Origin: Brevundimonas sp.
GTDB lineage: Bacteria; Pseudomonadota; Alphaproteobacteria; Caulobacterales; Caulobacteraceae
Reading direction: 5' to 3'
NCBI RefSeq assembly: GCF_013912005.1
Contig: NZ_JACESB010000006.1
Span: forward strand, 35,784-99,783
Length of the DNA: 64,000 nt
In this document: in pieces, positions 1,388-19,936 of the stretch
Layout: the number at the start of each line of letters is the position of its first letter
Numbering within the stretch: position 1 is the stretch's first letter
Notes under the pieces: model-generated
Database searches by the model: none
Seen by the model: the letters and a program-made list of their open reading frames with translations, nothing else
What the model was told of the DNA's origin: nothing
Program-made: the position numbers and the translations under genes

Positions 1388-1505
1388 CGCCAAAGGCCCC
1401 GACCCTCCGATCTCGTCACCACGTGCGAGGGGGAGGCCGTCGCGCGGCCGTAGTTCTTTACGAGCCGCCCGGGCCTCCCCGAGCGGCCCATCCTGGGGTG
1501 CGAAC

Positions 1506-3887
1506 ATGCCGCCGACCCGATCCGCCGCGTTCGAAGCCTGGGCCGCGGGCTACGGGGTCATCCGCCACGCGCCGGAGACCGTCGGCCGGATCGAGGCCCT
1601 CGCCGAGCGTCTGTGTCACCGCGACGAAGCCGGCCTCGACCGGTTTTACCGCTTGCTCGCCGCGGCCGACCGCCTGACCAGCGCCGGCATGTGGATGGTC
1701 GCCCACATGACCTATGCGCGGCGCGTCGACCTGACGGGCGCCGACCTGCCGGCCGAGGCCTTCAAACCACGGCCGGAAGGTCATACCGGCGGCTCCCTCA
1801 ACATGGTCCCGGCCTTCGTCGGCTATCTGGTCGCCAACGCGCTTTCTGGCGTCACCCGCTCCTGGGTGATGGGGCAGGGCCACTGCGTGGCCGCGATAGA
1901 GGCCGTCAACGCCCTGACCGGCGACGTCTCGCCGGCGCAGCGCGGTCGCTACGACCGCAGCGAGGAGGGACTTTCCCGCCTGGTGGCCGACTTCTATTCC
2001 TACGCCATCGGGCCAGACGGTCGACCGGCGGTCCCGATCGGCAGCCATTCCGGCGCCAACACCGCCGGGGCGATCTCGGAGGGCGGCTACCTCGGGTTCG
2101 CCGAGGTCCAGTACGTCCACATGCCTCTGCCGGGCGAGAGTCTCGTCGCCTTCCTGAGCGACGGGGCCTTCGAGGAGCAGAGGGGCTCGGACTGGTCGCC
2201 CCGCTGGTGGCGCGCCGACGACTGCGGCCTGACGATCCCGGTGATGATCCTCAATGGCCGCCGCATCGAGGAGCGTACGCAGATCGCCCAGGAAGGCGGC
2301 GCCGCCTGGCTGGCGGCCCACCTCCGCCTGAGCGGCTTCGATCCGTTTGTGGTGGACGGCCGCGATCCCGCCGCCATCGCCTGGGCCGTTCTCGAAGCCG
2401 AGGAGCGCCTGACCCGCTTCGCCGCCGACCCGTCTCGCCGGTATCCGGCGGCGATGCCCTATGTGATCGCCGAGACCGTCAAGGGCTTCGGCCTTCCAGG
2501 CGCGGGCACGAACCCGGCGCACAATCTTCCGCTGGCGGCGACGCCCCGCGACGACAGGGTTGCGCGCAAGGCCTTTCATGACGCGGCCCGGGTTCTGTTC
2601 GTGCCGCCCGCCGTTCTGGAAGACGCCGTCGGCGCGCTGGCCACCCACGAGGCGCAAGGCCGCTCCCTGGAAAGCCGGCACCCGGCCGCAGTGCGCCATC
2701 CGCCCGCCCCGATCCTGCCCCAGCCGAGCTGGGCCCAGCCGGACGCCGCGCCGGGCTGCGCCATGGAGGCGATCGACGGCTGGTTCGTGGAACTTGTGGA
2801 AGCGAACCCGGCCCTGCGCGTGCGGGTGGGCAATCCCGACGAACTGCGCAGCAATCACATGGGGCGGACGCTCGAGCGTCTCCGCCACCGCGTCAACACG
2901 CCCGAACGCGGAACCCCCGAAGCGATCGCTGGCGGCGTCATCACCGCACTTAACGAGGAGGCGGTGGCCGGCGCGGCCCTTGGCAACAAGGGCGGATTGA
3001 ACCTGATCGTGAGCTACGAGGCGTTCGCGATGAAGATGCTCGGCGGCCTGCGCCAGGAGATCATCTTCGCCCGGCATCAGCGCGAACTCGACCAGGGGCC
3101 GGGGTGGATCTCCGTGCCCCTGATCGTAACCTCCCACACCTGGGAGAACGCCAAGAATGAGCAGTCGCACCAGGATCCCACGATCGGCGAGGCGCTGCTG
3201 GGCGAGATGTCGGACGCCGCCCGGGTGCTGTTCCCGGTCGACGCGAACAGCGCCGTCGCCGCCCTTAAGGACGTCTATGGCCGCCGCGGCCAGATTGCCT
3301 GCGTGGTGGCGCCCAAGCGGGCCATGTCGCACCGTTTCACCGGCGCCGAGGCGGAGGCGCTGGTCCGGACGGGCGCGGCCCATCTCGCCGGCGACCCGCG
3401 CGAGGCCGAGATCCAGTTCGTCGCCATCGGCGCCTACCAGGCCGAGGAAGCGCTGAAGGCGGCCGAGCGGCTGCAGGCGCGCGGGCGCCAGGCCTGCGTC
3501 ACCGCTCTGATCGAGCCGGGCCGCTTCCGCGCGCCCCGGGATCCGCTCGAGGCCGCGCAGACGGTCGATGATGCGAGGCTGGCCGAGTTCTTCCCCCCGT
3601 CGCTGCCGCGTGTGATCCTCAGCCACACCCGGCCCGAGCCGATGCTGGGCCTGCTGCGCCGCCTGGACGGCGGACCAGGCTCGACCACGGCGCTGGGCTA
3701 CATCAGCCGCGGCGGAACGCTCGATGTCGCCGGCCTGCTGTTCGCCAACCGCTGCACTTGGGCGCACGCCGTGGACGCGGCGGCTGGCCTGTGCGGCTGG
3801 GCGCGGGACGATCTGTTCACGGGCCCGGAGCGGGCCGCCCTCGACGGGCGCGGCGATCCGGCCGCCCTTTCGACCATGGAGACCTGA
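1506..3887 (+). CDS. xfp: Phosphoketolase family (XFP-like, TPP-dependent) enzyme
   Basis: Motifs EGHTGGSLN, EGGYLG, TPP motif SDGAFEE...ILNG, NPDELRSN, ALNEE, SYEAF and NEQSHQDP; 793 aa. Confidence 0.88.
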   Translation: MPPTRSAAFEAWAAGYGVIRHAPETVGRIEALAERLCHRDEAGLDRFYRLLAAADRLTSAGMWMVAHMTYARRVDLTGADLPAEAFKPRPEGHTGGSLNMVPAFVGYLVANALSGVTRSWVMGQGHCVAAIEAVNALTGDVSPAQRGRYDRSEEGLSRLVADFYSYAIGPDGRPAVPIGSHSGANTAGAISEGGYLGFAEVQYVHMPLPGESLVAFLSDGAFEEQRGSDWSPRWWRADDCGLTIPVMILNGRRIEERTQIAQEGGAAWLAAHLRLSGFDPFVVDGRDPAAIAWAVLEAEERLTRFAADPSRRYPAAMPYVIAETVKGFGLPGAGTNPAHNLPLAATPRDDRVARKAFHDAARVLFVPPAVLEDAVGALATHEAQGRSLESRHPAAVRHPPAPILPQPSWAQPDAAPGCAMEAIDGWFVELVEANPALRVRVGNPDELRSNHMGRTLERLRHRVNTPERGTPEAIAGGVITALNEEAVAGAALGNKGGLNLIVSYEAFAMKMLGGLRQEIIFARHQRELDQGPGWISVPLIVTSHTWENAKNEQSHQDPTIGEALLGEMSDAARVLFPVDANSAVAALKDVYGRRGQIACVVAPKRAMSHRFTGAEAEALVRTGAAHLAGDPREAEIQFVAIGAYQAEEALKAAERLQARGRQACVTALIEPGRFRAPRDPLEAAQTVDDARLAEFFPPSLPRVILSHTRPEPMLGLLRRLDGGPGSTTALGYISRGGTLDVAGLLFANRCTWAHAVDAAAGLCGWARDDLFTGPERAALDGRGDPAALSTMET

Positions 3888-3889
3888 AG

Positions 3890-5244
<1,355 letters not shown>

Positions 5245-5248
<4 letters not shown>

Positions 5249-6762
5249 CCGGGTTGGCCGATCGCGCGCCGACGCTGAAAGCCCGCCGGCTGCGGCTGCA
5301 TACGCAGCACGAGCCGGTGGTGATCATGCGGAGCGACTGCCACGTCTGCCGCTCCGAGGGCCTGGCCGCCCGATCGCAGGTGCTGCTCGCAGCGGGGGAC
5401 AGGGCGGTCCAGGCGACTCTCTTCCAGGTCGATGGCGACGCCTTGCTGGCTCCGGACGAAGCGGCCCTGTCGGAGGCGGCCTGGACGCTGCTGGGCGTTC
5501 AGGAGGGCGATCCCATCCACGTCAGCCATCCGCCGACGCTGGAGTCGCTATCGAGTGTTCGCCGGCGCATCCACGGCCATCGCCTCGACGCGGAGGCCAT
5601 GGCCGGGATCGTGCGCGACGTCGTCGCCGGCCGCTACAGCGAAATCCACCTTTCGGCCTTCCTGACCGCGACCGCGGCTTGGCCGCTTGATGGCGACGAG
5701 ACCTCCCACCTGACCCAAGCGATGATCGAGGCCGGAGACCGGCTGTCGTGGAACGCTCCGATTGTGGTCGACAAGCACTCGATCGGCGGCCTTCCGGGCA
5801 ATCGCACTACGCCGATCGTCGTCGCCATCGTGGCGGCCCTCGGCCTGACCATGCCGAAGACCTCGTCGCGCGCCATCACCTCGCCGGCGGGCACGGCCGA
5901 CACGATGGAAACCCTGACCAAGGTCGATCTCGACATTCCGGCGATGCGCCGGGTGGTGGAAGCCGAAGGGGGATGCCTGGCCTGGGGCGGCGCGGTCCGT
6001 CTCAGTCCGGCGGACGACATCTTCATCCGCGTCGAGCGGGTGCTGGACATCGACACCGAAGGCCAGCTGATCGCCTCGGTGCTGTCAAAGAAGATCGCGG
6101 CGGGTTCCACCCACGTCGTTCTCGACATCCCGGTCGGCCCGACCGCCAAAGTCCGGAGCGAGGAAGCGGGCCGCGCCTTGGGCGAGCGCCTGGTCGAGAC
6201 CGCCTCGCGGTTCGGCCTCACGGCCGTCTGCCTGCAGAGCGACGGCTCCCAACCGGTCGGGCGGGGCGTGGGACCGGCGCTGGAGGCGCTGGATGTTCTC
6301 GCGGTCCTGCAGAACGATCCAGACGCGCCCGACGACCTGCGGCGCCGGGCTTGCACCCTGGCCGGCGCCGTGCTGGAGCTGGCGGGCGCCGCGGCCGAAG
6401 GCGACGGCTTCGGAGCCGCCGCGCAAGCGCTCGCCGACGGGCGCGCATGGTCGAAGTTCCAGCGGATCTGTGAGGCCCAGGGCGGGCTGCGGGTTCCGCC
6501 TGCCGCCGCCCTCCGGCGGCCGCTTGCGGCGACCCGCTCCGGCCGCGTCGTCCACATCAACAACCGCAAGGTCGCCCGGTTGGCGAAGCTCGCCGGCGCG
6601 CCGGACGCCAAGGCGGCGGGGCTGGCGGTGGAAGTTCGCCTTGGCCAGGAGATCGCGGCTGGGGACCCCTTGCTGACGGTCCATGCCCAGACGCCGGGCG
6701 AGCTCGCCTACGCCCTGGACTACGCCGCGGCGAACCTGGATCTCGTGGAGATCGAGGCCTGA
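5245..6762 (+). CDS. Thymidine/AMP phosphorylase family protein (AMP phosphorylase-like, with N-terminal extension)
   Basis: Motifs VDKHSIGGLPGNRTT, PKTSSRAITSPAGTADTME, SVLSKKIAAGS and QPVGRGVGPALEA. TTG start at 5245 overlapping the upstream TGA was chosen; the ORF track gives 5203. Confidence 0.9.
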
Positions 6763-6770
6763 CGGCGGAG

Positions 6771-7073
6771 CTAGACCGTCAACCAGACGAGGGCCAGGTA
6801 GCCCGCCAAGGGGAGGATCGCCGCCCAGCAGCCCCAGTAGAGCGCCTCTTCCCACCACGCGGCCGGCCGATCTGCGTCCAGCCTGCGCCGGGCCGTCATC
6901 GCCCCGAGATGGGCGAACAGGCCGACGGCGAACGGCTGGGCCGCGGCGGTCTTCAGAACGCCCGCCGCCAGCGCGCCCAAGCCGAGGCCGGCGGGCGCCG
7001 CGCCGACAACCGAGAGGGTGTCGAGGGCCTTCGCCCGCCGGGCCAGGGCGACGTCAGGCGCTGGCTTGGCCAT
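6771..7073 (-). CDS. Small membrane hypothetical protein
   Basis: Two to three hydrophobic segments. ATG at 7073 overlaps the 3' end of the ATPase gene. Confidence 0.5.
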
Positions 7074-9438
7074 GGGCCGCTCCGTCTTGATGCGGATGTC
7101 CCTGGCGGACATGCGCCCGGGGCCCGAGCCGCGTCCGCTTCAGCAACAGGGCGTTGATGGCGACCAGGGCCGAACTGCCGGACATGGCCAGGGCGGCGAT
7201 CTCCGGACTGAGGGTGAACGGATAGAAGACGCCGGCCGCCAACGGGAAGGCGATGACATTGTAGCCGACGGCCCACCAGAGGTTCTGGTGCATCTTGCGC
7301 AGGGTGGCGCGGGAGAGGGCGATCGCCTTGACCACGTCGGCCGGGTCGGAGCGCATCAGCACGACATCGGCGCTCTCGATCGCCACATCTGTCCCCGCGC
7401 CGATGGCGAAGCCGACGTCGGCCTGGGTGAGGGCCGGCGCGTCGTTGACGCCGTCGCCGACCATGCCGACCTTGTTTCCTTCGTCCTGCAGCGCCTTGAC
7501 CTTCGCGGCCTTGTCGCCCGGCAGTACCTCGGCCAGGACGATGTCGATCCCCAATTCATCGGCGATGCGTTTGGCGGTGCCGAGGTTGTCGCCGGTCATC
7601 ATCGCCACCTTGACCCCCAGCGCCTGGAGCGCCTCGATCGTCTGACGCGCGGTGGGACGCACGGCGTCGGCGACGGCGATCAGGCCGATGATCCGGCCCT
7701 CCTCGGCGATATGGACGACGGTGCGGCCGGCGCCCTGCAGGCGCTCGGACTCGGCGGCGAGATCGCCGAGATCGACGCCGTGCTCGGCCATCAGGATGCG
7801 GTTGCCGGACAGCAGCTGACGGCCCTCGACGGTCGCCATCAGGCCCTTGCCGCCGAAGGACTGGAAGTCCGTGGCGACCGCCACCGGCAGACCCGCGGCG
7901 CGCTCGCGCACCGCCTTGGCGATGTGATGCTCGGAGCCTTGCTCGATGGCGATGGCCCGGGTGAGCAGGGCCGTCTCGTCGAGCCCGGCGGCGGGCACGA
8001 CCTGCACCACCTTCGGCGCGCCCATGGTCAGAGTGCCGGTCTTGTCGAAGACCACGACATCCAGCTTGACCGACTCCTCGAGGGCCGCGGCGTCCTTGAT
8101 GAGGATTCCGTTCTGGGCCCCGAGGCCGGTGCCAACCATGACCGCCATGGGGGTGGCGAGGCCCAAGGCGTCCGGGCAGGCGATAACGAAGACGGTGATC
8201 GTCAGGGTCATGGCGAACAGCAGCGACTGGCCGATCACCCAGAACCAGATGGAGAAGGTCAGGAGGCCGATGACGATCGCCGCCAGCACCAGCCATTGCG
8301 ACGCGCGATCGGCGAGCAACTGGGCCGGGGCCTTGGAGTTCTGGGCCTCCTGGACCAGTTTGACGATCTGGGCGAGGGCGGTGTCCGCCCCGATCCGGGT
8401 GGCGCGATAGCGAAACGCCCCGGCGCCGTTGATCGAGCCGCCGACCACGGTGTCGCCGACCGCCTTGGCGACGGGCAGGGATTCTCCGGTCAGCATGGAC
8501 TCGTCGATGTCCGAACGGCCGTCCTCGATGGTCCCGTCGACGGGGATCCTGCCGCCGGGCCGCACGATGACCTCGTCGCCGACGATCACTGCCGAGGTCG
8601 CGATTTCGATCTCGACTCCGTTCCGCCGCACCCGGGCCGTCGGCGGCGCGAGGTCCATCAGATGGCGGATGGCCTCGGATGCGCCGGCCCTCGCCCGCAT
8701 CTCAAGCCAATGGCCGAGAAGGATGAACACCAGCAGCAGGGCGGAGGCTTCATAGAACTGGGGCGCGTCGTAGAAGAAGGTCGAGCCGATGCTGAAGAGA
8801 TAGCCCGTGCCCACGCTGAGCAGGACGAGGACGGCCATGTTGAGGGCGCCGCGGCGCAGCGCCCGAACTGCCGCCACGAAGAAGGGCCAACCCGGATAAA
8901 GGATCGCGGCGCTGGCGAGCACGAACAAGGTCGGCTCGAGCGGCAGGCCGAAGGGCGGCTCCATCTTCATGAAGTCCATGCCCATGGGGGCCAGGAAGAA
9001 GATCGGGATCGTGAACAGCAGGCTGATCAGGAAGCGATTGCGCATGTCCCGCGCCATCGCCTGCATGTCGGCGCCGGGGCCGTGACCCATGTCGTCATGG
9101 GCCGAGTGGGCGTCGCCGCCCTTCGCCGTCCGGGGTCCGTGCGCGGCGTGGTCGTGATGCGACGCAGCGTGGACGAGCGCCGGCGGGGCGGTGTCGGCGT
9201 CCGGCGCGCAGACGTGGCGGGGGAGGACCTCGCCCCGGCAATGGAAACCACAATCGCGCACCGCCTGGCGCAGCGCCGCGACGCTCGTCCTGGACTCGTC
9301 GTAGGTGACGGTCGCCGAGGCCGAGGCGAAGTTCGCCGCGACCTGGGCGACACCCGGCAAGGCGCGGAGTTTCTTTTCGACCACGAGGGGATCGAGCGGG
9401 GTTCTGAAGCTGGTGACGTCGACGGTCGCGGTGCGCAA
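7054..9438 (-). CDS. copA: Heavy-metal (probably Cu+) translocating P1B-type ATPase
   Basis: Motifs [23 protein letters not shown]6 CPD, TM7 YN and TM8 MSGSS. N-terminal HMA-like fold plus a His-rich linker. TTG start with AGGAG RBS. Confidence 0.92.
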
Positions 9439-9462
9439 GGGAACTCCTGGACGGAAGGCGGG

Positions 9463-10110
9463 TCAGGCGGCCGCGGGCGCGCCCAGTCGAGGTAGAAACG
9501 CCGGCGTGACGGCCTTGTAGCGGCGGTAGGCGTCGCCGAACTCCGCCAGCACGGCCTTCTCCTCGGCCAACGCCAGCCGCCAGTAGGTCACGACCAGGAT
9601 CGGGAACATGATCAGGGTCAGGAGGGTCGGCCACTGCAACAGGAAGCCGAACATCACCAGCACGAAGCCGACGTACTGAGGATGACGCATCCGCGAGTAG
9701 GGGCCGGTGGACGCCAGCACGCCCTCCTTCTGGGCCCGGTAGAGCACGGACCAGGCGGTCGAAATCAGCCAGAAGCCCCCGCCGATGAAGACGAAACTGA
9801 GGATGTGGAACGGGCCGAAGTGGGGGTTGGCCTTCCAGCCGATGGTCATCTCCAGCAGGTGGCCTGCATCGTGCGACAGCCAATCGACGCCCGGGAACCG
9901 CGTCTGCAGCCAGCCCGACAGCAGGTAGATGGTGAGCGGAAAGCCGTACATCTCGGTGAAGAGCGCCACGATGAAGGCGCTGAAGGCGCCGAACGCCCGC
10001 CAGTCGAGGCTCGTCCGCGGCTTGAAGAAGCTGAGCGCGAAGAAAATGAAGAGGACGGAATTGACGATCACCAGGGACCAGAGGCCGTAGGCTTGGGGTG
10101 TCTGGGTCAT
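9463..10110 (-). CDS. Isoprenylcysteine carboxylmethyltransferase-family membrane protein (copper-cluster type)
   Basis: Motifs FTEMYGFPLTIY, GPYSRMRHPQYVG and EEK...EFGDAY. ATG at 10110 overlaps the DUF2933 stop. Confidence 0.85.
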   Translation of the reverse strand: MTQTPQAYGLWSLVIVNSVLFIFFALSFFKPRTSLDWRAFGAFSAFIVALFTEMYGFPLTIYLLSGWLQTRFPGVDWLSHDAGHLLEMTIGWKANPHFGPFHILSFVFIGGGFWLISTAWSVLYRAQKEGVLASTGPYSRMRHPQYVGFVLVMFGFLLQWPTLLTLIMFPILVVTYWRLALAEEKAVLAEFGDAYRRYKAVTPAFLPRLGAPAAA

Positions 10111-10337
10111 GGTGCGCGCCCGCTGTCGGGGTCTTGAGCGCGGGGGGCCTGTGCATGGCCCCCGTGCGAGCCATGTCGCCCATGCATCGTGAAGTGCATG
10201 AGCGGACAGAGGAGGAGCAGCAGCAGAGGCGCCCATCCCAGCAGGTGCATTCGATGTTCGAAGGCCAGCAGGGCCAGGAGCGTCAGGGCGAAGAGCCCGA
10301 TCACGACCTTCGCCGCCAGTCCCAGGTTCGTCCTCAT
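10107..10337 (-). CDS. DUF2933-like small membrane protein
   Basis: H-L-L-G-W...LLLCPLMHFTMHGRHGSHGGH motif; GGAGG RBS upstream of the ATG at 10337. Confidence 0.82.
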   Translation of the reverse strand: MRTNLGLAAKVVIGLFALTLLALLAFEHRMHLLGWAPLLLLLLCPLMHFTMHGRHGSHGGHAQAPRAQDPDSGRAP

Positions 10338-10447
10338 CTCAAGGCCCTCCCTCCAAAGGATACGCAGCGAAACGGTGAGCCCCTCGCCAGGGTGTCCGCA
10401 GCGGCACCTCCCTCGACGCAGGCTGAACCGGGACCCCACGGGCCGCC

Positions 10448-10461
10448 TTGATCTGACGCAA
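10448..10461 (-). promoter_or_regulatory. FNR/FixK-type box (TTGATCTGACGCAA on +, TTGCGTCAGATCAA on -)
   Basis: 12/14 identical to the box at 1010-1023. Lies about 110 nt upstream of the DUF2933-ICMT-copA operon. Confidence 0.65.
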
Positions 10462-10502
10462 ACCGAAATTGCCCCCGCCGCGGCCCCTGGCGGAAGCGGA
10501 AT

Positions 10503-11684
10503 TCACCCTCGGTTTCGACGGAGCCAGTCGCCGGCAAGGCGGGCGATCATCGACTGTTCGTCTGTGGGGAGCACAAGCACATTGACGGCCGAGTCTCCGG
10601 CGCTGATGCGTCGGTCGCCTGCGGTGTTCCGGGCCTCGTCCAGGCGGACGCCGAGCCAGCCCGCGGCCGCGCAGATCCGCCGCCGGATCTCCGGCGAGTT
10701 CTCTCCGATGCCGGCGGTGAACACCAGGGTGTCCAGGCCGCCCAGCGCGGCGGCGAGGGAGCCGATGGCGCGACCGGCGCGGTAGACGAACAGGTCCACC
10801 GCCTCGCGGGCTTCCGAGGCGCCGCTGTCCAGCAGGACCTCCATGTCCCCGGAAAGGCCGGAGACGCCCAGCAGGCCGGAGTGGTGGGCGAGCAGATCGG
10901 CGACCGCGTCGGGCGACAGGCCCCGATCGCTAATCAGATGCAGGACCACGCCCGGATCAAGCGCGCCGCTGCGGGTGCTCATCGGCAGCCCATCCAGGGG
11001 CGTCATCCCCATGGTCGTGGCCATACTGCGCCCGTCATGGAGCGCGCAGAGGCTAGCTCCGGAGCCCAAGTGGGCGACGATGGTCCGGCCGCCCGCCTGC
11101 TCGCCGAGGACCGTCTGCAGCGCCTGCGCGATCCAGGCGAAAGACAAGCCGTGAAAGCCGTAGCTCATCACGCCGTCGCCGCTGAGGGCGCGGGGCAGGG
11201 CGTAGAGGCGCGCAAGCCGGGGCTGGGAGTGATGGAAGGCCGTATCGAAGCATCCCAGGTGCGGAACGCCGGGGATCGCCGCCATGGCCGTCTCGACGCA
11301 GGCGATATTGACCTCTTGATGCGCTGGGGCCAGCGGCGCAAGCCGCCGCAGGTTCGCCAGCACCCGTCCGTCCAACGGGGTGGGTTCGAAATAGTCCCGA
11401 CCGCCATGCACGATCCGGTGCCCGACCGCCGTGATCTCTCCGAGCCGCTTCGCGGCGCGCAGGCGCTCGAGCAGCAGGTCCAGAGCTCGCGAGGCCGACA
11501 TCGGCCCGCCTGAGAGCGGCTCGTGCCGAGACTCTGTCGCGTCTTCCCGCCGGACGCTCAGGCGCGGTTCGCCGGCCAGTCCAGCGACGGAGGCGCTCCA
11601 GACCCGCCGTTCGCCGAGCTCGTCATGGAGGGCGCACTTCAGGCTGGATGAACCGGCATTGATGGCGAGGATCAGACCAGCCAC
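10503..11684 (-). CDS. ackA: Acetate kinase
   Basis: Motifs INAGSSSLK, GHRIVHGG, FDTAFH, YGFHGLS, HLGSGAS, MGMTPLDG and FTAGIGENS. Confidence 0.95.
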   Translation of the reverse strand: MAGLILAINAGSSSLKCALHDELGERRVWSASVAGLAGEPRLSVRREDATESRHEPLSGGPMSASRALDLLLERLRAAKRLGEITAVGHRIVHGGRDYFEPTPLDGRVLANLRRLAPLAPAHQEVNIACVETAMAAIPGVPHLGCFDTAFHHSQPRLARLYALPRALSGDGVMSYGFHGLSFAWIAQALQTVLGEQAGGRTIVAHLGSGASLCALHDGRSMATTMGMTPLDGLPMSTRSGALDPGVVLHLISDRGLSPDAVADLLAHHSGLLGVSGLSGDMEVLLDSGASEAREAVDLFVYRAGRAIGSLAAALGGLDTLVFTAGIGENSPEIRRRICAAAGWLGVRLDEARNTAGDRRISAGDSAVNVLVLPTDEQSMIARLAGDWLRRNRG

Positions 11685-11776
11685 TGTCGCTCCGACTCGA
11701 CGGCTCGGTTTACGAACCCGGACAAGCAGGTTCGTTCCTGGGCCGGGGTTTGTGAAGACAGGGAAGAGGACGTCGC

Positions 11777-13051
11777 ATGACGCACGACGACGCCGGTCGG
11801 CCGAGCCGGGACGAGGTGCTCAATCGGGCGTGTTTCTGCATCACGCTCGAACGGCCGGCGCTCGAGACCGCCCTTCGCCGCGAAACCTCAGATCCGCAAT
11901 TGATCGACGCCCTGCTTTCCGAGCGTCCGCATCTATTCTCGAACGCGCCCGTCTTCGTCTCCAAAGAGGACCTCGCGGCTATGACCGTGGTCGTGGAGGC
12001 CTTGGAAGCGGCGGCCGAGACCCCAAGCTACCAGGAGCAGGTGCTGAGCTGGGCGCCCGAGATCGCTCGGCGGGATTTTGGCCCTCGCGGCGCCTTCATG
12101 GGGTACGACTTCCATCTGGGCGACGACGGGCCGCGGCTCATCGAGATCAACACCAACGCCGGCGGCGCCTTCCTCAACGCCATCCTGGCGCGGGCGCAGA
12201 GCGCTTGCTGTCGCGAGGTGAGAGAGGCCTTTCCGGTTGACGGGTCCGGAGCGTTCGAGGCGGCGGTCTGGCGCATGTTCCTCGACGAATGGGCGTCGCA
12301 AGGGAGGGCTGGGCAGCCCGGCCTGATCGCCATTGTCGACGACAGGCCGACGGAGCAGTACCTCTATCCGGAGTTCCTGCTGGCGAAGTCGCTGTTCGAA
12401 CGGCGCGGGGTCGAGGCGGTGATCGCCGATCCGACGGAGTTCGACCACGCCGGCGGCCGGCTGTCGCACCGGGGTCGTGCGATCGACCTGGTCTACAACC
12501 GGCTCGTGGATTTCGCTTTCGAGGCGGAAGACCACCGACCGTTTCGTGACGCCTACCTCGATGGGGCGGTGGTGGTGACGCCGAACGCCCGAAATCACGC
12601 TCTGCTGGCCGACAAGCGGAACCTGGTGCTGCTTTCCGACCCGGCGGCTGTGCGCGCGTTGGCGCTTCCGGATCGACACGAGCGGGCGCTGGCGGCGATT
12701 CCGAGAACCATTCTCGTGACCAAGGAAAACGCTGAAGCGATGTGGGCCGACCGCAAGCAGTTCTTCTTCAAGCCCGCGGGCGGGCACGGCGGCAAGGCGG
12801 TCTACCGTGGCGACAAGATCACCCGCGGGGTTTGGGCGCATGTGAGCAAGGGCGGCTACATCGCCCAGGAGGTTGCCCCGCCCGGTGAGCGCCGGCTCCG
12901 CGTGGACGGCGAGGTGCGGTCTCTGAAGCTGGACGTCCGCCTCTACACCTACCGAGCCAGGCCCCTTCTTGCCGCCGCCCGCCTCTATCAGGGCCAGACC
13001 ACCAACTTCAGGACTCCCGGCGGCGGTTTCGCGCCGGTCTATGCGGCGTAG
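11777..13051 (+). CDS. ATP-grasp-like ligase (glutathionylspermidine synthase / circularly permuted ATP-grasp-like), function unknown
   Basis: Motifs GYDFH...LIEINTNAGG, VYNRLVDF, FKPAGGHGGK, YIAQE and DVRLY; GAGGA RBS. Confidence 0.7.
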   Translation: MTHDDAGRPSRDEVLNRACFCITLERPALETALRRETSDPQLIDALLSERPHLFSNAPVFVSKEDLAAMTVVVEALEAAAETPSYQEQVLSWAPEIARRDFGPRGAFMGYDFHLGDDGPRLIEINTNAGGAFLNAILARAQSACCREVREAFPVDGSGAFEAAVWRMFLDEWASQGRAGQPGLIAIVDDRPTEQYLYPEFLLAKSLFERRGVEAVIADPTEFDHAGGRLSHRGRAIDLVYNRLVDFAFEAEDHRPFRDAYLDGAVVVTPNARNHALLADKRNLVLLSDPAAVRALALPDRHERALAAIPRTILVTKENAEAMWADRKQFFFKPAGGHGGKAVYRGDKITRGVWAHVSKGGYIAQEVAPPGERRLRVDGEVRSLKLDVRLYTYRARPLLAAARLYQGQTTNFRTPGGGFAPVYAA

Positions 13052-13175
13052 GGGCGGCGACGGAGGGGATGCGGGCGGTAAGCCCAGCCCTTAAGTCGAC
13101 CGTTGCGGCAACTCCCAGTTGCCATCATCGGCGAGGTGTCCGAGCCTCGCCCGTCTTTCCAGACGGGTGAGTGCG

Positions 13176-14126
13176 ATGCCGACAACAGTGGTCAAGCCGA
13201 TCCATTTCGAAGACTTCGGCGGCGTGGATTTCGAGCGCCTGGTCTTCGCCTACCTGCTGCGGGCGGGCTGGGTCGATGTCGCCTGGCACGGCCAGACAGG
13301 GAGTGACTTGGGCCGCGACATCATCGGGACGCAGGTCTTCGATGATGAACCTAATCGCCGAACCGTCGTGCAGTGCGTCAATCGCAGCAGCCTCACCAAG
13401 ACCAAGGCCGAACGGGACATGCGGCGGCCCGCCGATGCCCCGACCGGAAAGCCCGACGCCATACGCTTCATCTGTCGCGCCAACATCTCGTCGGAGCGAC
13501 GGGACCACGTCAGAATCTTTGGCCGGTCGCTCGGCGTAACGCACGCCGACGCCTGGTCGGGCGGCGAGTTCGAGGAGCATCTGCGCCATGACGCCGAGTT
13601 CCTGTTGCGGCGGTTCGTGGAAGGCGTGGCGTTCCCCGACGGCGCTGAGGATTTACGCCGGTTCATTGGCGATTTCCCGGACCTGACTGACGATGACGCA
13701 CTGCAGCTGATGGCGGCGGTGTTCGATCGTCCCGTCTTCCGCACGCCCTTCCAGGGTGAAAGCCAGTTGCCGGCCTTCCAACAGGCGATCAGCGACACCA
13801 TCGAAGCGCTCAACACCGGCGTGTGGCGAACGCGGGAAGGGCTTGAGGTGCGGCGCATCCCGTCACGCCATCACATCCGGTCGGCCGCCGTCCGGGCAAC
13901 GTTGGCGACCGTCGTCGAGAAGCTCGACCTCACGCGCGAGCTGTTCAGGGCCCGGCTGGCCGACGGTGGCGTGCGGCATTGCGACTGCGGCCAGGAGGAC
14001 TGCCCCGTATTCATGGTAACTGAGGCGGCGGCAGCTGAACTCGACACGGCGAGAAGGGACGCGCTGCGGACCTTCGGCTCGGTGACCCACGGGTTCGATG
14101 TCGAAATCCGGGAAGGCCGCTGGTGA
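13176..14126 (+). CDS. Mrr-like PD-(D/E)XK restriction-endonuclease domain protein with an unrecognised C-terminal domain
   Basis: N-terminal FEDF..VDFERLV..L, GQTGSDLGRDI, VVQC and W.G..FE..L pattern of Mrr_cat-type domains. ATG at 13176. Confidence 0.7.
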   Translation: MPTTVVKPIHFEDFGGVDFERLVFAYLLRAGWVDVAWHGQTGSDLGRDIIGTQVFDDEPNRRTVVQCVNRSSLTKTKAERDMRRPADAPTGKPDAIRFICRANISSERRDHVRIFGRSLGVTHADAWSGGEFEEHLRHDAEFLLRRFVEGVAFPDGAEDLRRFIGDFPDLTDDDALQLMAAVFDRPVFRTPFQGESQLPAFQQAISDTIEALNTGVWRTREGLEVRRIPSRHHIRSAAVRATLATVVEKLDLTRELFRARLADGGVRHCDCGQEDCPVFMVTEAAAAELDTARRDALRTFGSVTHGFDVEIREGRW

Positions 14127-15109
14127 GTGCGCCCTCGCTCTATGCTCGGATGCGCGAGCACGGGACGCTGACGGAGACGCCCAAGGACATCCCCGACGCG
14201 GTTTTCGCGCTGCCGTCGACTCTCAACTGGATGAAGGCCCTGGCGATCCTGACTACGGAACTTGGGGTGGATTTCCAGAACGCGCGGACCTTCTACCAGC
14301 GCGTCCAGCGACGCGACCTGGCCGAGCCGCAACTTAACTCGGTCTTCGAGCAACTCCTTTTCTCTCTCAATCAGCTCGCGGCCCTGCGTGCCCTGACGGC
14401 GGTCCCGAACAAGGCCGATGTCGCCCGGGTCGGCATCGTGACCTGGTACTATGGCGTCTACGGCGCGGCCTCGGCGATGATCGCGGCCGCAGACGGGTCC
14501 TTTCCGGAGACTCACGCGATGACGGCCCTGCAGTGGGACCGGCAGTTCGCCAACCCCAAGCTGGCGATGCCGCCCTTCGCCGATCGACTGAGCAGTGTGA
14601 AGAAGACCGACGCCGACGCAGAACTGGCGGCGCCCCGATCGCGCGGACAGTATTCGTTGACCATCACGCCAACAACGCTCGAACAGGCTTGGGGGTGTAG
14701 TGCGGAGTACCTGTCCGGCACCGCGGCCTGGGAACGATGGAACCAGGAGCAGCGGGTCCGGAGTTCCCCGGCCTTCAAAGCCTTGGAGGTCGAGGACTTT
14801 CGCACCAAGGCCGCCCGGGAACTGCGCGACGCCGCCTTCGTCCGAAAGAGCATCTGCTTCCTCCACGAGGCGTCCCGCTATCGCGGCAAGGCCAACTATC
14901 GGGACGCCATCTATCTCGCCTACGGCAGGTCTGTCTCGACCCTGGTCGATGGCTTCATCGACGATCTGGCGATCGTGCTGTCCCGCTTCTCCGCCATGGC
15001 CGCGGGCTACAGTTCGGTGCGGATGGGCAGGGACCGCTGGACCGAGTTCATGACGGACCTGGAAGCCCGGCGGGCTATTTCACTCTCGCCATTGGAGGTG
15101 TGGTCGTAG
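14123..15109 (+). CDS. Hypothetical protein with HEPN-like motifs
   Basis: GTG start overlaps the upstream TGA (GTGA 14123-14126). WYYGVYGAASAMIAA resembles the HEPN YYAxFHAA helix; later TH and RYRGKANY (R..A(D/N)Y-like) motifs. Confidence 0.6.
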   Translation: MSAPSLYARMREHGTLTETPKDIPDAVFALPSTLNWMKALAILTTELGVDFQNARTFYQRVQRRDLAEPQLNSVFEQLLFSLNQLAALRALTAVPNKADVARVGIVTWYYGVYGAASAMIAAADGSFPETHAMTALQWDRQFANPKLAMPPFADRLSSVKKTDADAELAAPRSRGQYSLTITPTTLEQAWGCSAEYLSGTAAWERWNQEQRVRSSPAFKALEVEDFRTKAARELRDAAFVRKSICFLHEASRYRGKANYRDAIYLAYGRSVSTLVDGFIDDLAIVLSRFSAMAAGYSSVRMGRDRWTEFMTDLEARRAISLSPLEVWS

Positions 15110-15423
15110 ATGCGCGAAGGCGCAGTGGGCCAGCAGGGCTGATAGCAAGCCTAGACTCACTGTAGTGTCAGCCGTGCTACAAGCGAGGCCGGGGACCCCG
15201 GAAATCGACCTTGCGACCGAAGTAAACAGCTATGAATGTGCTGCTGATAGGGTCTCCGGCGTTGTCAATAGGTCGCGAAAGATGTCCGGATCACCGACTT
15301 TTTATTTCATCCGTTTTCACTAGTCTTTTCAATGGCGTTAGATTTTTCCGGTCTTCTGATCGGCCTGAGCCAGGCTGTCGACAAGAAAATCCCGATAAAA
15401 CAAATAGTTATTTAATTTCAAGT

Positions 15424-15439
15424 GATCGAGTGGGAGTGA
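15424..15439 (+). repeat. att-site-like duplication of the guaA 3' end (GATCGAGTGGGAGTGA)
   Basis: Encodes IEWE*, the conserved GuaA C-terminus, in non-coding context. Contains the GAGTGGGA core known for guaA-targeting islands. Immediately preceded by ATAAAACAAATAGTTATTTAATTTCAA. Confidence 0.7.
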
Positions 15440-15682: not shown

Positions 15683-16081
15683 GTGACGGACCAGAGCAGC
15701 GCCGACATCGGCACGGTCGTCGGTCAGGCGGATTCCGGCCTCGCCTGTCTGGCCATGCTGCTGGCGTTCCACCAGATGCCTGCTGCTCCCGAACAGCTGA
15801 GGCATTCGCTCGGCCACGGCGAGCCGGCTGACGAGGCTGACCTCGTCGGGCTGGCCAGACGTCTGGGGGCTCGCGCCAAGTCGGCGTCTGTTGATGTCGA
15901 GCGGCTTCTCGATCTCCCGCTGCCGGCCATCTGACGGGACGCGTCCGGGAACTTCTTCCTGATCGCAGCGGTGCGGGACGACGAAGTCCTGATCCAGCGG
16001 CCGGGCGAGCCGGCGCAGCGGCTGCCTCTCGGGCGGCTGGCGGAAGGGTGGTCCGGCCGGCGCTTGCGGCCAGACCGCTGA
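15683..16081 (+). pseudogene. Truncated HlyB-type type I secretion ABC transporter (C39-like N-terminal domain only)
   Basis: DSGLACLAMLLAFH...LARRLGARAK...LPLPAI. After an in-frame TGA at 15932-15934 the homology continues (RDASGNFFLIAAVRDDEVLIQRP...GWSGR) to TGATGA at 16079. No TM or ATPase domains follow. Confidence 0.8.
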
Positions 16082-16477: not shown

Positions 16478-16957
16478 TTCGAGTTGCGGAAAGCCGGGCC
16501 TTCCAGCCGCCCTGGACGGTGACCCAACCGCGACCAGAACTGCCTGCGCATGATGCGTCCCTGAAGTCGCCCCAGACAAGCGAGAAGTATGGCGGTAGAG
16601 TTCGGCTTCCAGCGTGCCTAGGAATGGCGTCTTTCCGCCTTGCCGGCAACGCTGGAAGCGGTGCCTAGCGGAGCTCCCCATCACGCGGGAACGTCCACGG
16701 TCCCAGATATACTATGGTGACCAGTGCGAGCTCCCGCACCCAATATCGCAGTCTCATCGCCGTCCTGGTCCCCCAGGGCGGCGATTTTGCGTTGGGCGGC
16801 CCGGCTCGACCTTGCGGCGCGCCTGTCGGAGCATGTCATCGTCCCGATCGGGCCTGCGCACCGGCCCCGGCGTCAGCCGCGGGCGCGCTGACGCTGCTCC
16901 GGGAGGGCTTCCCGGCCGCCGGCGCTCTCCGCCATCCGGCCGGCCCTCCGGCGTCGG

Positions 16958-19936
16958 TCACAGGCGCCAGCGCAGGCCGAGGCTGAAGCTGCGTCCGGCG
17001 CGGCCCAGCTGCAGCAGCCGGCTGCGGTCGCCCTCCCAGGCCATGTCCGTGGCGTCGGTCAGATTGGTCGCGCCGACGACCAGCTGCGCCGCGGGGCCGA
17101 TGTCCCAGGTGGCCTGGGCGTCGAGATATCCGGCGGGGGCGACCACGAACGAACTGACGCCGCCGCCCTGCATGTCGGCCTCCGACCGGAAGGCGGAGCG
17201 CCAGGACCAGGACAGCGCCAGTTCGAACGGGCCGCGCTCGAAATAGGGATTGAGCGACCAGGCGAGGTCGGAGACCCCCGCCAGCTCGCGCCGCGCGCCG
17301 CTGGTCCGGTCGGTGGCGCTGGCGCGGGTCCAGGTGGCGCTGGCCCACAGGCCCAGACCGGACGGAAGGCGGTGGTTGAAACCGAGCTCCAGCCCCGTGG
17401 TCCGCGCATGGCCGACGTTGCGCGGCCGCGACATCATCACCTCGGCGGTCACCGCCGCGCCGGCCCGGGTCTCGAACACCAGGGCCTCGGGCGCCTCGAC
17501 CGTCAGGATGAAGTCGTCGATCGACTTGTGAAACGCCGCCACGCTGAGGGCCCCGCGGGGGAAGCTCCACTCCCACGACAGGTCATAGTTGGTCGACCGA
17601 TAGGGCCGGAGCGCCGGATTGCCCCCCACGCCGGTGAAGATGGTGCCGGGGGCGGGATCGTCGATCTCCGCCTGGCCGCGATCGAAGATGGCCCGCACCA
17701 GGGTGCTGGCCGGCACGGTGGCGGACCTCAGGTCGGCCAGCGACGGGCGGGTGATCGTGCGCGAGACCGCCAGCCGCAGCAGCCGGTCCTCGTCCAGCTC
17801 GATGGCCAGGTTGGCGCTGGGCAGCCAGACCCGGTGCGAACCGGCGTGTCCGGCCGGCCGGACCTCGAGGACGCCGTCGGCGTCGACGCCGAGGATGGAG
17901 CCCTCCACCGCCGTCCGGACGTCGACCAGCCGCACGCCGAGATTTCCGAAGGTCGGCCGGCCCCCGAGCTCTCCGGCCACGTCGAGGCGGACATAGGCCG
18001 CCGCGATCCGTTCGCCGACGCGATAGGAGTTCTGAAGGTCCGCTCCGGTCGGGGCCAGATCCCGGGGGCGGGGCGACACTCCGTCGAACTCGCCGGGAAT
18101 GACGAAGGCGGTCTCGAACCAGTCTGATCCGGCGGTGATCCAGGGGCCGGGCCGGACCGTCAGCAGCCGTTCGAACACGGCGTCGGGCGTGGCGGCGGCA
18201 TAGGCGCCGGCGGCGGGATCGAAGCCGGGCCGCAGCGCCGCTTCCCGGTCGCGCCGCTGGTAGTCCCGGTTGCGGTCGCTGATCTGGAACCCGACCTGCA
18301 CCGCCGACAGGCCGCCGGGCCCCCGGCCCTGAAGCGGTCGCCGGGCGTCGAGCCTCGCCGTCACGTCGTCGTCCCGGGACTCCACCGCCCGGACGTGGAG
18401 GCGCGGCGGTCCGAGAAGGGCCGGGTCCAGCAGGTCGAAACCGGTCGACAGGCGGGCCGCCCGCCGGCGGGTTGCGGCGTCTCCCAGGTCGAAGGCCCAG
18501 GCGACGTCGGATGCGGACGTGGCGGATATGCGCTGCAGCGGCGTGTCGAGCACGGAGCGGGCCAGCGAGCCGCTGAGCCGCGGCGTGATCCGCCAGTTCC
18601 CCCGGCGCCAGACGGCGCCGACGGACGCCGCCAGGTTCAGGTGGGACTGGTCCGAGAACTCGGTGTTGTTGTCGATCTCGCCGTCCGCGACCGCTCCGGC
18701 CACCACCACCCCGTCCCGCACCCGGGCCGAGGCGCCCGGCGCCTGCAGCCGCTCGCCGAGGCCGAACACCAGCCGGTCCTCGCGGATCGCGTTGTCGAAG
18801 GTCGAGGCCAGGGCGTCGACATCCAGCGACAGGGTCGGAGACAGGCGCCAGTCGGCGCCTAGGAAGGCGCTGCGCCGGCGACGATCCTCGCGCTCCACCG
18901 TGGTGCGCACGTCGTTCGGCGCGGCCACCGTGACGCCCTCGAGCGCCAGATCCCGGTAGCGCTGGATCTGGAAGCGGTCGTAGAGCACCGACCGCTCCTC
19001 CTGCGCCACCCCCGCGACCACGCCGCGCTCGCCGTCGGCGGAGACCAGCCGTCCCGCGACGGAAACGTCCGGCCCGAGCCGTCCCGTGCGCCGTTCGAGA
19101 CCGGCGCCGGCGCGCACGGTCAGGAACGGCTCGCCGTCGAGCCCGCCGACGGTCTCGATGTCGATATTGGCGCCGATGCCGCCGTCGATCAGGTCGGGCG
19201 TCGCGGACTTGGTCAGGCGGGCCCCGGCCAGAAGATCGGCGGACAGGGCGCGGAAGCGGAATTGACGGCCGCTCTGGGTCGAGTTGCGGATGTTCTCGTT
19301 GAAGGCCACGGGCGCGCCGTTCAGGGTGACCGACTGGAACAGGGGCCCCAGACCCCGGACGCTGACGAACTGTCCCTCGCCCACCTCGCGCTCGATGGCG
19401 ACGCCGGGGACGCGCTGCAGGGCCTCGGCGAGATTGGCGGCGGGCGCCTCGCCGATCCGGGCCGCTGAAACCCCGTCCGAGATGACGTCGGCCTCCCGCT
19501 TGCGGCGCACGGCTTCGTCGATCTGTTCGGAGAACCGGCCGAGCACCACCACCGGCTCCAGTTCGGTCGGCTCCGCCTCCGGCGGGGCCGGCGGAGGCGC
19601 AGGCGGGGGCGCGGCCCGGACCTCCGCCCAGACCCGCACCCCGCGCGGGCCGACGAAGCGGTAGCGCAGGTCCGATCCCTGCAGCATGCGCCGCACCGCC
19701 GTCCGCCACGACATCCGTCCGCGCACGGCGCGCGTGCGCAGCCCGGGGCGCGGCCCCAGGAACACCAGTTCGCAGTCGGCGGCGAGGCACAGCTCGACCA
19801 GGGCCGCGGAGGCGTCTTGGGCCGGGATGTCGAGGTTGCGCAGGTCGGCGTCCTGGGCCGCAGCCGGCGAGGCCGCCAACGCCAGGCCGAACGCCGCCGC
19901 CACGCCGACCGGCAGCGATGGTGCAAGCGGTTTCAC
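16958..19936 (-). CDS. TonB-dependent receptor with N-terminal STN signalling domain
   Basis: Signal peptide, then LDIPAQDASAAL (STN) and a Pro-rich linker. Plug NLAEALQRVPGV...VSVRGL, barrel GGNPALRPY, C-terminal GRSFSLGLRWRL. Confidence 0.92.
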   Translation of the reverse strand: MKPLAPSLPVGVAAAFGLALAASPAAAQDADLRNLDIPAQDASAALVELCLAADCELVFLGPRPGLRTRAVRGRMSWRTAVRRMLQGSDLRYRFVGPRGVRVWAEVRAAPPPAPPPAPPEAEPTELEPVVVLGRFSEQIDEAVRRKREADVISDGVSAARIGEAPAANLAEALQRVPGVAIEREVGEGQFVSVRGLGPLFQSVTLNGAPVAFNENIRNSTQSGRQFRFRALSADLLAGARLTKSATPDLIDGGIGANIDIETVGGLDGEPFLTVRAGAGLERRTGRLGPDVSVAGRLVSADGERGVVAGVAQEERSVLYDRFQIQRYRDLALEGVTVAAPNDVRTTVEREDRRRRSAFLGADWRLSPTLSLDVDALASTFDNAIREDRLVFGLGERLQAPGASARVRDGVVVAGAVADGEIDNNTEFSDQSHLNLAASVGAVWRRGNWRITPRLSGSLARSVLDTPLQRISATSASDVAWAFDLGDAATRRRAARLSTGFDLLDPALLGPPRLHVRAVESRDDDVTARLDARRPLQGRGPGGLSAVQVGFQISDRNRDYQRRDREAALRPGFDPAAGAYAAATPDAVFERLLTVRPGPWITAGSDWFETAFVIPGEFDGVSPRPRDLAPTGADLQNSYRVGERIAAAYVRLDVAGELGGRPTFGNLGVRLVDVRTAVEGSILGVDADGVLEVRPAGHAGSHRVWLPSANLAIELDEDRLLRLAVSRTITRPSLADLRSATVPASTLVRAIFDRGQAEIDDPAPGTIFTGVGGNPALRPYRSTNYDLSWEWSFPRGALSVAAFHKSIDDFILTVEAPEALVFETRAGAAVTAEVMMSRPRNVGHARTTGLELGFNHRLPSGLGLWASATWTRASATDRTSGARRELAGVSDLAWSLNPYFERGPFELALSWSWRSAFRSEADMQGGGVSSFVVAPAGYLDAQATWDIGPAAQLVVGATNLTDATDMAWEGDRSRLLQLGRAGRSFSLGLRWRL

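What the first reader, a model, noticed from the sequence alone, without database searches (positions are those of the whole stretch)
15290..15439. Orphan guaA 3' end marks the right junction of an integrative element
GATCGAGTGGGAGTGA (IEWE*) at 15424-15439 is the terminal sequence of GMP synthase genes, but here it is non-coding. It is preceded by the most AT-rich tract in the window, including an AAATA-GT-TATTT inverted repeat. Established: tyrosine integrases that target the guaA 3' end duplicate this sequence, with core GAGTGGGA. Prediction: an intact guaA on the + strand and an integrase lie upstream of the window, and everything up to 15439 is excisable cargo.
Basis: partly seen in the sequence, partly recalled or inferred. 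Interest (0 to 1): 0.65.

Follow-up and report, generated by a model that had tools for sequence, protein, structure and literature searches.

The report
Stranded guaA attachment-site relic in island
The short "end of guaA" sequence is a real attachment-site scar of a well-known family of mobile islands that insert behind the guaA gene. Here it is stranded inside a different, tRNA-linked metal-resistance island far from guaA, so it is a fossil and not the working edge of an excisable element.

Summary
GATCGAGTGGGAGTGA sits at 15424-15439, is non-coding, is unique in the genome, and follows the most AT-rich tract of the window. That tract is the conserved right arm of GIsul2-type islands, which target guaA and recombine at the core GAGTGGGA. 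The 52 bases after the site resemble the sequence that follows guaA in relatives with an unoccupied site.

The predicted partner is not upstream. The contig runs back 51 kb to a 23S-5S-tRNA-Met operon and a large serine recombinase gene. A 65-nt repeat containing the tRNA-Met 3' end lies at 16729-16793, 1.3 kb right of the orphan. In two relatives the tRNA-Met is followed within 0.2-8 kb by the homologue of window 26.7 kb.

The real guaA, with a P4-type integrase 55% identical to GIsul2 Int, lies on contig C17. In another Brevundimonas genome that element is 99% identical and ends at a different orphan, on contig C1.

The window's site is therefore a relic attR inside a mosaic tRNA-Met island. 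It is a new member of a known kind and of modest interest.

The parts
1..15199 (.). Cargo of the island, which continues 35 kb upstream of the window to C39:796. It holds a Prs-like/phosphoketolase/beta-CASP/phosphorylase/acetate-kinase module, a P-type ATPase, an ATP-grasp gene and a Mrr-like plus HEPN-like pair.
   Evidence: Pfam hits. GC3 is 0.77-0.86 against a genome median of 0.91. C39:13408-49996 is 97.5-99% identical to G021:C14 in a different context.
15200..15423 (+). Right arm (attR arm) of a GIsul2-family guaA-targeting element. Its conserved blocks are TTGTCAATAGGTCGCGAAAGAT...GATCAC...TTTTTA at 15262-15302, TTTTCA at about 15326-15331, and CGG-N-CGG at about 15350-15373. This is the AT-rich tract of the finding.
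   Evidence: Alignment of 8 right ends from 5 genomes shows the same blocks at the same distance from the core. It is the most AT-rich tract in the window.
15424..15439 (+). Orphan guaA 3' end. The core GATCGAGTGGGA (GAGTGGGA at 15428-15435) is followed by the native-type GTGA ending. Element-supplied ends read ATAA, ATGA or ATAG.
   Evidence: The core is as published for GIsul2 (PMC9376610).
15440..15494 (+). Flank resembling the sequence that follows the guaA stop codon in relatives with unoccupied sites. It holds a terminator-like hairpin at 15462-15478 followed by TTTCGTT.
   Evidence: 31/35 identical to the guaA-downstream sequence of G019 and 36/49 to that of G016. 43/52 identical to site 2 of G021 and 41/52 to the G018 site at 2288 kb. 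Hairpin. The fold z-score is only -1.1.
15683..15934 (+). Fragment of a peptidase-C39 (bacteriocin-exporter type) domain that ends in an in-frame TGA. It is a pseudogene remnant between the relic attR and the island end.
   Evidence: Pfam PF03412, E 4.7e-11, 83 aa then a stop.
16729..16793 (+). Right copy of a 65-nt direct repeat, 86% identical to C39:782-846. Its first 13 nt, GCTCCCGCACCCA, are the 3' end of tRNA-Met, followed by a 13-bp hairpin and a T-run. It marks the right boundary of the 51.7-kb insertion at tRNA-Met.
   Evidence: BLAST E 2.8e-14, alignment, hairpin. In G023 and G021 the tRNA-Met is followed by a terminator and then, 0.2 kb and 8 kb on, by the homologue of window 26717+.
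16958..19936 (-). TonB-dependent receptor gene. It is the first gene outside the tRNA-Met repeat and has GC3 0.91. It is followed by FecR, a second receptor, PI-PLC, a class I tRNA synthetase, dxs and flhA/flbD/fliF, which are chromosomal genes.
   Evidence: Pfam; GC3.

Best explanation
The site is a fossil right attachment site (attR) of a GIsul2-family integrative element. It consists of a right arm, the core GAGTGGGA, the native GAG-TGA end of guaA and about 52 nt of guaA-downstream terminator.

The junction forms as follows. A P4-type tyrosine integrase recombines the element's attP with the last codons of guaA. The element supplies a new ...GAA-TRR end and its own terminator to guaA. The original end is pushed to the far side of the element.

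In this Brevundimonas genome the junction no longer lies behind guaA. It sits 1.3 kb inside the right end of a 51.7-kb mosaic island carrying metal-resistance and low-oxygen genes. That island is inserted at the 3' end of the rrn-distal tRNA-Met, is bracketed by a 65-nt tRNA-Met repeat, and carries a large serine recombinase at its other end.

Shown here: the identity of the core, arm and flank; the absence of a partner attL or integrase on the contig; the tRNA-Met boundaries; and the fact that the genome's real guaA-linked element (C17 plus C1) has its own attR.

Inferred: island DNA once integrated at a guaA was moved, together with its attR and a little flank, into the tRNA-Met island. The likely route is recombination among the related, heavily reshuffled metal islands of this genus. 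The relic is now passive unless a family integrase acts on it in trans.
For: Identity of the site:
- Core and uniqueness.
- Published core and guaA target of the GIsul2 integrase: PMC9376610.
- The C17 integrase has Arm-DNA-bind_3, Phage_int_M and Phage_integrase domains with AlpA next to it. It is 54.8% identical to the integrase of GIsul2 on pAB3.
- 73 of 80 integrase homologues have GA[AG]TGGGA 276-301 nt upstream, nearly all preceded by guaA's last codons.
- Right-arm blocks are shared by 8 right ends.
- The flank is homologous to the guaA-downstream sequence of G019 and G016.

Not paired with guaA:
- guaA lies on C17.
- C39:1-795 is 23S/5S/tRNA-Met.
- C39:797-2380 encodes a large serine recombinase.
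- There are no integrase or left-arm remnants in C39:1-53000.
- In G041 the C17 element continues into C1 and ends at the C1 orphan. Identity jumps from 80% to 99-100% exactly at the left core, and drops from 97-99.6% to 26-29% (unrelated sequence) at the right core.

tRNA-Met island:
- The 65-nt repeat.
- G023 and G021 lack the island between tRNA-Met and the homologue of window 26717.
- GC3 steps up at about C39:51-52 kb.

Mosaicism: G021:C14 carries C1-, C39- and C17-like modules in another order, including 36.5 kb at 97.5-99% identity.
Against: - The route by which an attR with guaA flank reached a tRNA-Met island is not shown. Only about 52 nt of flank is recognisably guaA-type, and the 1.2 kb that follows has no homologue next to guaA in any relative examined.
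- The assembly is a 42-contig draft, so the order of C17, C1 and C39 is inferred from relatives, not observed. Contig ends share no overlaps.
- Large serine recombinases do not normally create 65-nt repeats. The repeat may record two successive occupants of the site, not one integration.
Confidence: 0.7

Rival explanations
1. The site is the live attR of the element whose attL and integrase sit at guaA. The contigs are simply unlinked in the draft, and everything between guaA and 15439 excises as one element.
For: The genome has exactly one guaA-linked attL with an intact family integrase and AlpA. The window's site is the only orphan that keeps the native GAGTGA ending plus a guaA-type terminator. 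This is what the outermost attR of a guaA array should look like. The right arm is intact.
Against: - Upstream of the island on the same contig is an rrn operon end and tRNA-Met, not guaA.
- In G041 and G042 the C17 end is followed, after about 13.5 kb, by the C1 start, and the element ends at the C1-type right end.
- G023 and G021 place this locus next to tRNA-Met.
- The model would need an rrn operon inside the element.
Confidence: 0.07
2. The junction arose in place. A guaA-family element integrated into a secondary or decoy attB that already lay inside the tRNA-Met island. Under this model ATCGAGTGGGA comes from attP and the GTGA plus flank from the target. The element's left end, with its integrase, was later deleted.
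For: - Secondary-site integration is real in this family. Six of 80 integrase loci join the left arm to targets that share only (T)GGGA, and GIsul2 does the same (PMC9376610).
- B. sanguinis (G018) has a second family integrase inserted at CCTGGGA|ATAA, 2.4 kb from the same rrn-tRNA-Met. About 113 kb further on lies a right arm, a core and the same flank.
Against: - The flank is homologous to the true guaA-downstream sequence of G019 and G016, not to a random target.
- In G018 the two junctions are not reciprocal. The intact target gene in G003 continues ATGGCCGCATTG..., not the flank.
- No integrase or left-arm remnant is left in C39.
Confidence: 0.18
3. The site is a chance match, or the remnant of a duplicated or decayed guaA gene.
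For: Only 12-16 nt match guaA.
Against: - The expected number of chance copies of the 16-mer in 64 kb is about 3e-5, and the reversed-pattern control gives 0 in 25 genomes.
- There is no guaA homology upstream of the 12 nt. Instead the family's right arm is there.
- The downstream flank is conserved.
Confidence: 0.01

Closest known systems
GIsul2 and its att sites (attL, attLR, attR; Harmer et al. 2017; Zhang et al. 2022, PMC9376610)
   Same: The core is the same, 5'-GAGTGGGA-3', at the last codons of guaA. The integrase is of the same P4 type (54.8% identical over 94% of its length) and has AlpA beside it. The genome's guaA-linked element has an arsR-acr3-arsH module near the integrase, as GIsul2 does. 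GIsul2 also carries an internal, native-looking GAGTGGGAGTGA site (attLR) and also integrates at secondary (T)GGG(A) sites.
   Different: The window's site is not behind guaA and has no integrase or attL partner on its contig. The host is an alphaproteobacterium (Brevundimonas). The cargo is Cu/Czc/As resistance and a low-oxygen metabolic module, with no sul2 or ISCR2. The arms are not alignable with the E. coli/Shigella element by simple search. Excision has not been tested.
PIME family of guaA-adjacent integrative mobilizable elements (bioRxiv 10.64898/2026.01.12.698999)
   Same: Both use int plus alpA at the guaA attB. The genome's C17/C1 element also has MobC/NikA-like and MobA/VirD2-like relaxase genes, which fits a mobilizable element.
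   Different: [quoted passage not shown] No repA, trbJ or trbL turned up in the ORFs scanned here or in the 13.5-kb segment of G041. The preprint's text does not mention Alphaproteobacteria and reports 94% of its elements in Gammaproteobacteria.
tRNA-gene-associated genomic islands carrying a large serine recombinase
   Same: The island that holds the relic starts immediately after tRNA-Met with a Resolvase/Recombinase/Zn-ribbon protein. It is bracketed by a repeat containing the tRNA 3' end. It is absent from the same locus in relatives.
   Different: Serine integrases normally leave no long direct repeats. Recombinase activity and excision have not been tested. The island is a mosaic that includes a tyrosine-integrase att relic.

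Membership tests
GIsul2-family guaA-targeting integrative elements (the window's site) | Junction contains the core 5'-GAGTGGGA-3' | tested here: met
   GAGTGGGA is at 15428-15435 within GATCGAGTGGGAGTGA. The core is as published in PMC9376610.
GIsul2-family guaA-targeting integrative elements (the window's site) | The element lies directly behind an intact guaA whose 3' end it restores (attL) | tested here: not met
   guaA is on contig C17. The C39 island begins at 23S-5S-tRNA-Met. The C17 attL pairs with the C1 orphan in G041 and G042.
GIsul2-family guaA-targeting integrative elements (the window's site) | A P4-type tyrosine integrase of the family (plus AlpA) at the left end of the same element | tested here: not met
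   tblastn with 80 family integrases and blastn with about 70 left arms find nothing significant in C39:1-53000. The only family integrase in the assembly is on C17.
GIsul2-family guaA-targeting integrative elements (the window's site) | Conserved right arm adjoining the core | tested here: met
   Blocks TTGTCAATA..TC.CGAAAGAT..GATCA..TTTTTA, TTTTCA and CGG..CGG lie at fixed distances from the core in 8 right ends.
GIsul2-family guaA-targeting integrative elements (the window's site) | Integrase-dependent excision to attP plus attB | not testable with these tools
GIsul2-family element (the genome's C17 plus C1 element, for comparison) | guaA-attL-int-alpA ... right arm-core, transferred as a unit | tested here: met
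   Between G000 and G041, identity is 80% left of the core and 99-100% right of it. At the right end it is 97-99.6% left of the core and 26-29% right of it.
PIME (int, alpA, repA, trbJ, trbL) | Co-occurrence of all five core genes | tested here: inconclusive
   int and alpA are present on C17. MobC and a relaxase are on C1. No repA, trbJ or trbL was found among the ORFs scanned, but not every ORF was scanned, and the segment between C17 and C1 is missing from the assembly.
tRNA-linked island with a large serine recombinase | Resolvase, Recombinase and Zn-ribbon protein at the island end next to the tRNA | tested here: met
   C39:797-2380(-), 528 aa, with PF00239, PF07508 and PF13408. tRNA-Met is at C39:719-795.
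tRNA-linked island with a large serine recombinase | Flanking repeat of the tRNA 3' end, and an empty site in relatives | tested here: met
   The 65-nt repeat C39:782-846 / 52512-52576. In G023, tRNA-Met is followed 205 nt later by the homologue of window 26717+. In G021 the gap is 8 kb.

The most novel reading that the evidence does not exclude
The relic is not dead. Its right arm and core are intact, and GIsul2 Int is known to recombine attR with attB and to mobilise integrase-less units bounded by cores. The stranded attR could therefore be a second docking site for the resident C17 integrase or for incoming family elements. It would couple a tyrosine-integrase system to a serine-recombinase, tRNA-Met island. 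It would also drive the module shuffling and the non-reciprocal junctions seen here and in B. sanguinis. Portable attR-plus-flank modules would then be a mechanism for building mosaic metal-resistance islands and for chromosome rearrangement.
Probability: 0.12. Interest if true: 0.5.

Novelty: new member of a known kind. Interest (0 to 1): 0.3.

Why it matters
The guaA 3' end is an established hotspot for integrative mobilizable elements that spread resistance and defence genes. This case shows three things:
- The family is abundant in Brevundimonas and other Alphaproteobacteria, where it carries metal-resistance cargo.
- An orphan guaA end does not by itself locate an element's partner. Att relics can be carried into unrelated loci when islands recombine, which is a caution for automated island delineation.
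- The genome's working guaA element can be delimited to the base by comparison with a second species.

None of this changes what is known about how the family works.

Tried and rejected
- Contig-end overlaps to link C17, C1 and C39: none found. The first 1.5 kb of each contig is not repeated, apart from the 65-nt tRNA-Met repeat.
- A single 71-kb element made of C17 plus C39. The size matched the 68.7-kb island of B. albigilva, but that island is colinear with C17 plus C1, not C39.
- A tandem array guaA-[A]-[B]-15439. The C1 orphan is followed by 310 kb of chromosome, and its flank has homologues downstream of the guaA array in G021. C39 starts at an rrn operon.
- The C39 right flank as mobile or plasmid DNA. 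It encodes a class I tRNA synthetase, dxs and flhA/fliF.
- Synteny of the DNA downstream of guaA in the unoccupied genomes G016 and G019 with the window. Only about 55-130 nt is shared.
- The flank as the 3' end of the membrane-protein gene interrupted in G018. The intact gene in G003 continues differently.
- Remnants of a family integrase or left arm in C39: only noise-level hits.
- The AAATA-GT-TATTT inverted repeat as a functional site: it is not conserved among right arms.

Full report
**1. The observation.** The 16-mer GATCGAGTGGGAGTGA is at window 15424-15439 and occurs once in the 2.89-Mb, 42-contig assembly. The window is C39:35784-99783.

The site is non-coding. A TAA lies three codons upstream in the IEWE* frame. 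Identity to the genome's real guaA end covers only the 12 nt GATCGAGTGGGA.

The preceding tract, 15277-15426, is the most AT-rich of the window at every scale tested. The AAATA-GT-TATTT palindrome exists at 15402-15413 but is not conserved in related arms.

Chance is excluded. The degenerate pattern ATYGARTGGGARTRR gives 36 hits in 25 genomes of the genus and none for the reversed control.

**2. The family.** The genome's guaA is on another contig, C17:20037-21662, minus strand. It ends ...GATCGAGTGGGAATAA. About 280 nt further on is a 423-aa integrase with Arm-DNA-bind_3, Phage_int_M and Phage_integrase domains. It is followed by AlpA, ArsR, Acr3, ArsH, a CDF transporter and a CzcCBA-type pump.

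The integrase is 54.8% identical to the integrase of GIsul2 on A. baumannii pAB3. I confirmed that locus as int-alpA-repA-repC-trbJKL-ars-ISCR2-sul2. GIsul2 integrates at the guaA 3' end through the core GAGTGGGA, uses reduced cores at secondary sites, and its integrase recombines attL, attR and an internal attLR (PMC9376610). A 2026 preprint describes guaA-adjacent elements with int and alpA as a widespread family, PIME.

The organism is a Brevundimonas. Of 80 integrase homologues at 70% identity or more, from Brevundimonas, sphingomonads, Rhizobiales and Acetobacteraceae, 73 have GA[AG]TGGGA 276-301 nt upstream. Nearly all of these are preceded by guaA's last codons. Six are at secondary sites that share only (T)GGGA.

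**3. Native and element-supplied ends.** In the genus, seven genomes with a single copy of the pattern have guaA ending GAGTGA. In occupied sites guaA ends GAATAA, GAATGA or GAATAG, followed by a conserved left arm (TTCGGGCCTTTCGG...) that brings its own terminator.

The window's orphan has the native GAGTGA. The following ~52 nt are 31/35 identical to the sequence after guaA in G019, and 36/49 identical to that in G016. They include a terminator-like hairpin, although the fold is not statistically unusual.

Left of the orphan, the AT-rich tract aligns with seven other right ends from G000-C1, G021, G041, G042 and G018. The conserved blocks lie at fixed distances from the core. The site is therefore a genuine attR of this family. 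The arm block TCTCGAAAG is the reverse complement of CTTTCGAGA in the left arm, which makes these candidate arm-type sites. That is an inference.

**4. The site does not pair with guaA.** A third guaA-type site exists at C1:40639 (ATCGAGTGGGAATGA), with a homologous right arm.

In G041, a Brevundimonas MAG whose integrase is 100% identical, the island behind guaA is colinear with these segments in order: C17:20051-1, a 13.5-kb segment absent from G000, C1:31-2929, and C1:23383-40651. It ends at the orphan core. Identity between the two genomes is 80% in guaA and jumps to 99-100% exactly at the core. At the right end it is 97-99.6% up to the core and 26-29% (unrelated sequence) beyond it.

B. 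albigilva (G042) shows the same C17-to-C1 order. C1 also carries MobC/NikA-like and relaxase genes. The genome's guaA-linked element is therefore a mobilizable island of about 60-75 kb, made of C17 plus C1, with its own attR.

**5. What the window's site sits in.** Contig C39 begins with the last 461 nt of 23S rRNA, then 5S rRNA and tRNA-Met. Immediately after the tRNA, on the minus strand, is a 528-aa large serine recombinase.

Next come a C5 methylase, a GIY-YIG protein, an AAA_13 ATPase, CopA-type ATPases, a multicopper oxidase, RND and ABC transporters, and the low-oxygen module seen at the start of the window. No family integrase or left arm can be detected anywhere in C39:1-53000.

A 65-nt direct repeat, 86% identical, links C39:782-846 to window 16729-16793. 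Its first 13 nt are the tRNA-Met 3' end, followed by a hairpin and a T-run.

To the right lie TonB-dependent receptors, FecR, PI-PLC, a class I tRNA synthetase, dxs and flhA/flbD/fliF. GC3 rises from 0.77-0.86 to 0.89-0.94 at this point.

In G023 the tRNA-Met and its terminator are followed 205 nt later by the homologue of window 26717+. In G021, the closest relative, the gap is 8 kb. The 51.7 kb from C39:796 to window 16728 is therefore an insertion at tRNA-Met. The guaA-type attR lies 1.3 kb inside its right end, separated from the boundary by a peptidase-C39 pseudogene fragment.

**6. How it got there (inferred).** The metal islands of this genus are heavily reshuffled. G021:C14 carries C1-, C39- and C17-like modules in a different order, including 36.5 kb that is 97.5-99% identical to C39:13408-49996. 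It has neither recombinase nearby.

B. sanguinis (G018) has a comparable layout at the same rrn-tRNA-Met locus. A family integrase is inserted at the secondary site CCTGGGA|ATAA. About 113 kb further on lie a right arm, a core and the same flank. The two junctions are not reciprocal, because the intact target gene in G003 continues differently.

The most economical reading is that island DNA once integrated behind a guaA was moved by recombination into the tRNA-Met island, together with its attR and a short flank. An in-situ integration into a decoy site followed by loss of the left end remains possible (about 0.18).

**7. Limits.** The assembly is a draft. The order of the contigs is inferred from relatives. 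The origin of the portable 55-130-nt flank, which recurs after cores in G016, G019, G021 and G018 with unrelated DNA beyond it, is unexplained.

**8. Verdict.** This is a new member, and a relic, of a known kind. Interest is about 0.3.

Noticed in passing
G000 contigs C17:1-20051 and C1:1-40653 (outside the window): The genome's real guaA-linked element carries int, alpA, arsR-acr3-arsH, a CDF transporter, czcCBA, MobC/NikA-like and relaxase genes, and copD/DUF305/MauE. It is 98-100% identical in a Brevundimonas MAG of another species (G041). The identity switches exactly at the two GAGTGGGA cores, which indicates recent horizontal transfer of a mobilizable island.
   Followed up: yes
C39:797-2380 (35 kb upstream of the window) and window 16729-16793: A large serine recombinase abuts the rrn-distal tRNA-Met. 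A 65-nt repeat (the tRNA 3' end plus a hairpin) brackets 51.7 kb. Several other Brevundimonas genomes have a homologous recombinase at the same place, and some are decayed.
   Followed up: partly
window 15683-15934: A peptidase-C39 domain fragment ends at an in-frame TGA, and similar sequence continues in frame after it. It looks like the pseudogene of a bacteriocin-type ABC exporter.
   Followed up: partly
C39:13408-49996 (window up to 14213) versus G021:C14:29646-66154: A 36.5-kb block is 97.5-99% identical between two species but sits in different island contexts. The identity stops 1.2 kb before the relic attR, inside or next to the Mrr-like/HEPN-like pair.
   Followed up: partly
L054 (B. 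sanguinis NCCP 15609, about 2.40 Mb) and L123 (about 2.288 Mb): A second family integrase is integrated at the secondary site CCTGGGA|ATAA inside a membrane-protein gene. The matching right end carries a guaA-type flank instead of the rest of that gene. These non-reciprocal junctions imply a later rearrangement.
   Followed up: partly
L004, L009, L022, L123, L124 (100-130 nt after the core): A conserved segment of about 130 nt, ending in a GTAGTAGATTTAGGGA-like motif, follows the core in G016, G019, G021 and both G018 orphans. The DNA beyond it is unrelated in each case. Its nature is unknown.
   Followed up: no
C1:40654-48350 (outside the window): Right of the C1 orphan lie a cytochrome c, a Usp, a second beta-CASP hydrolase, a Crp/Fnr regulator and a flavoprotein. 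This is functionally similar to the low-oxygen module at window 8-11684, and it has homologues downstream of the guaA array in G021.
   Followed up: no
window 15270-15283 and C17 left arm: The most conserved right-arm block, TC(T/G)CGAAAGAT, is the reverse complement of the CTTTCGAGA repeats in the left arm. These are candidate arm-type binding sites for the integrase's N-terminal domain.
   Followed up: partly
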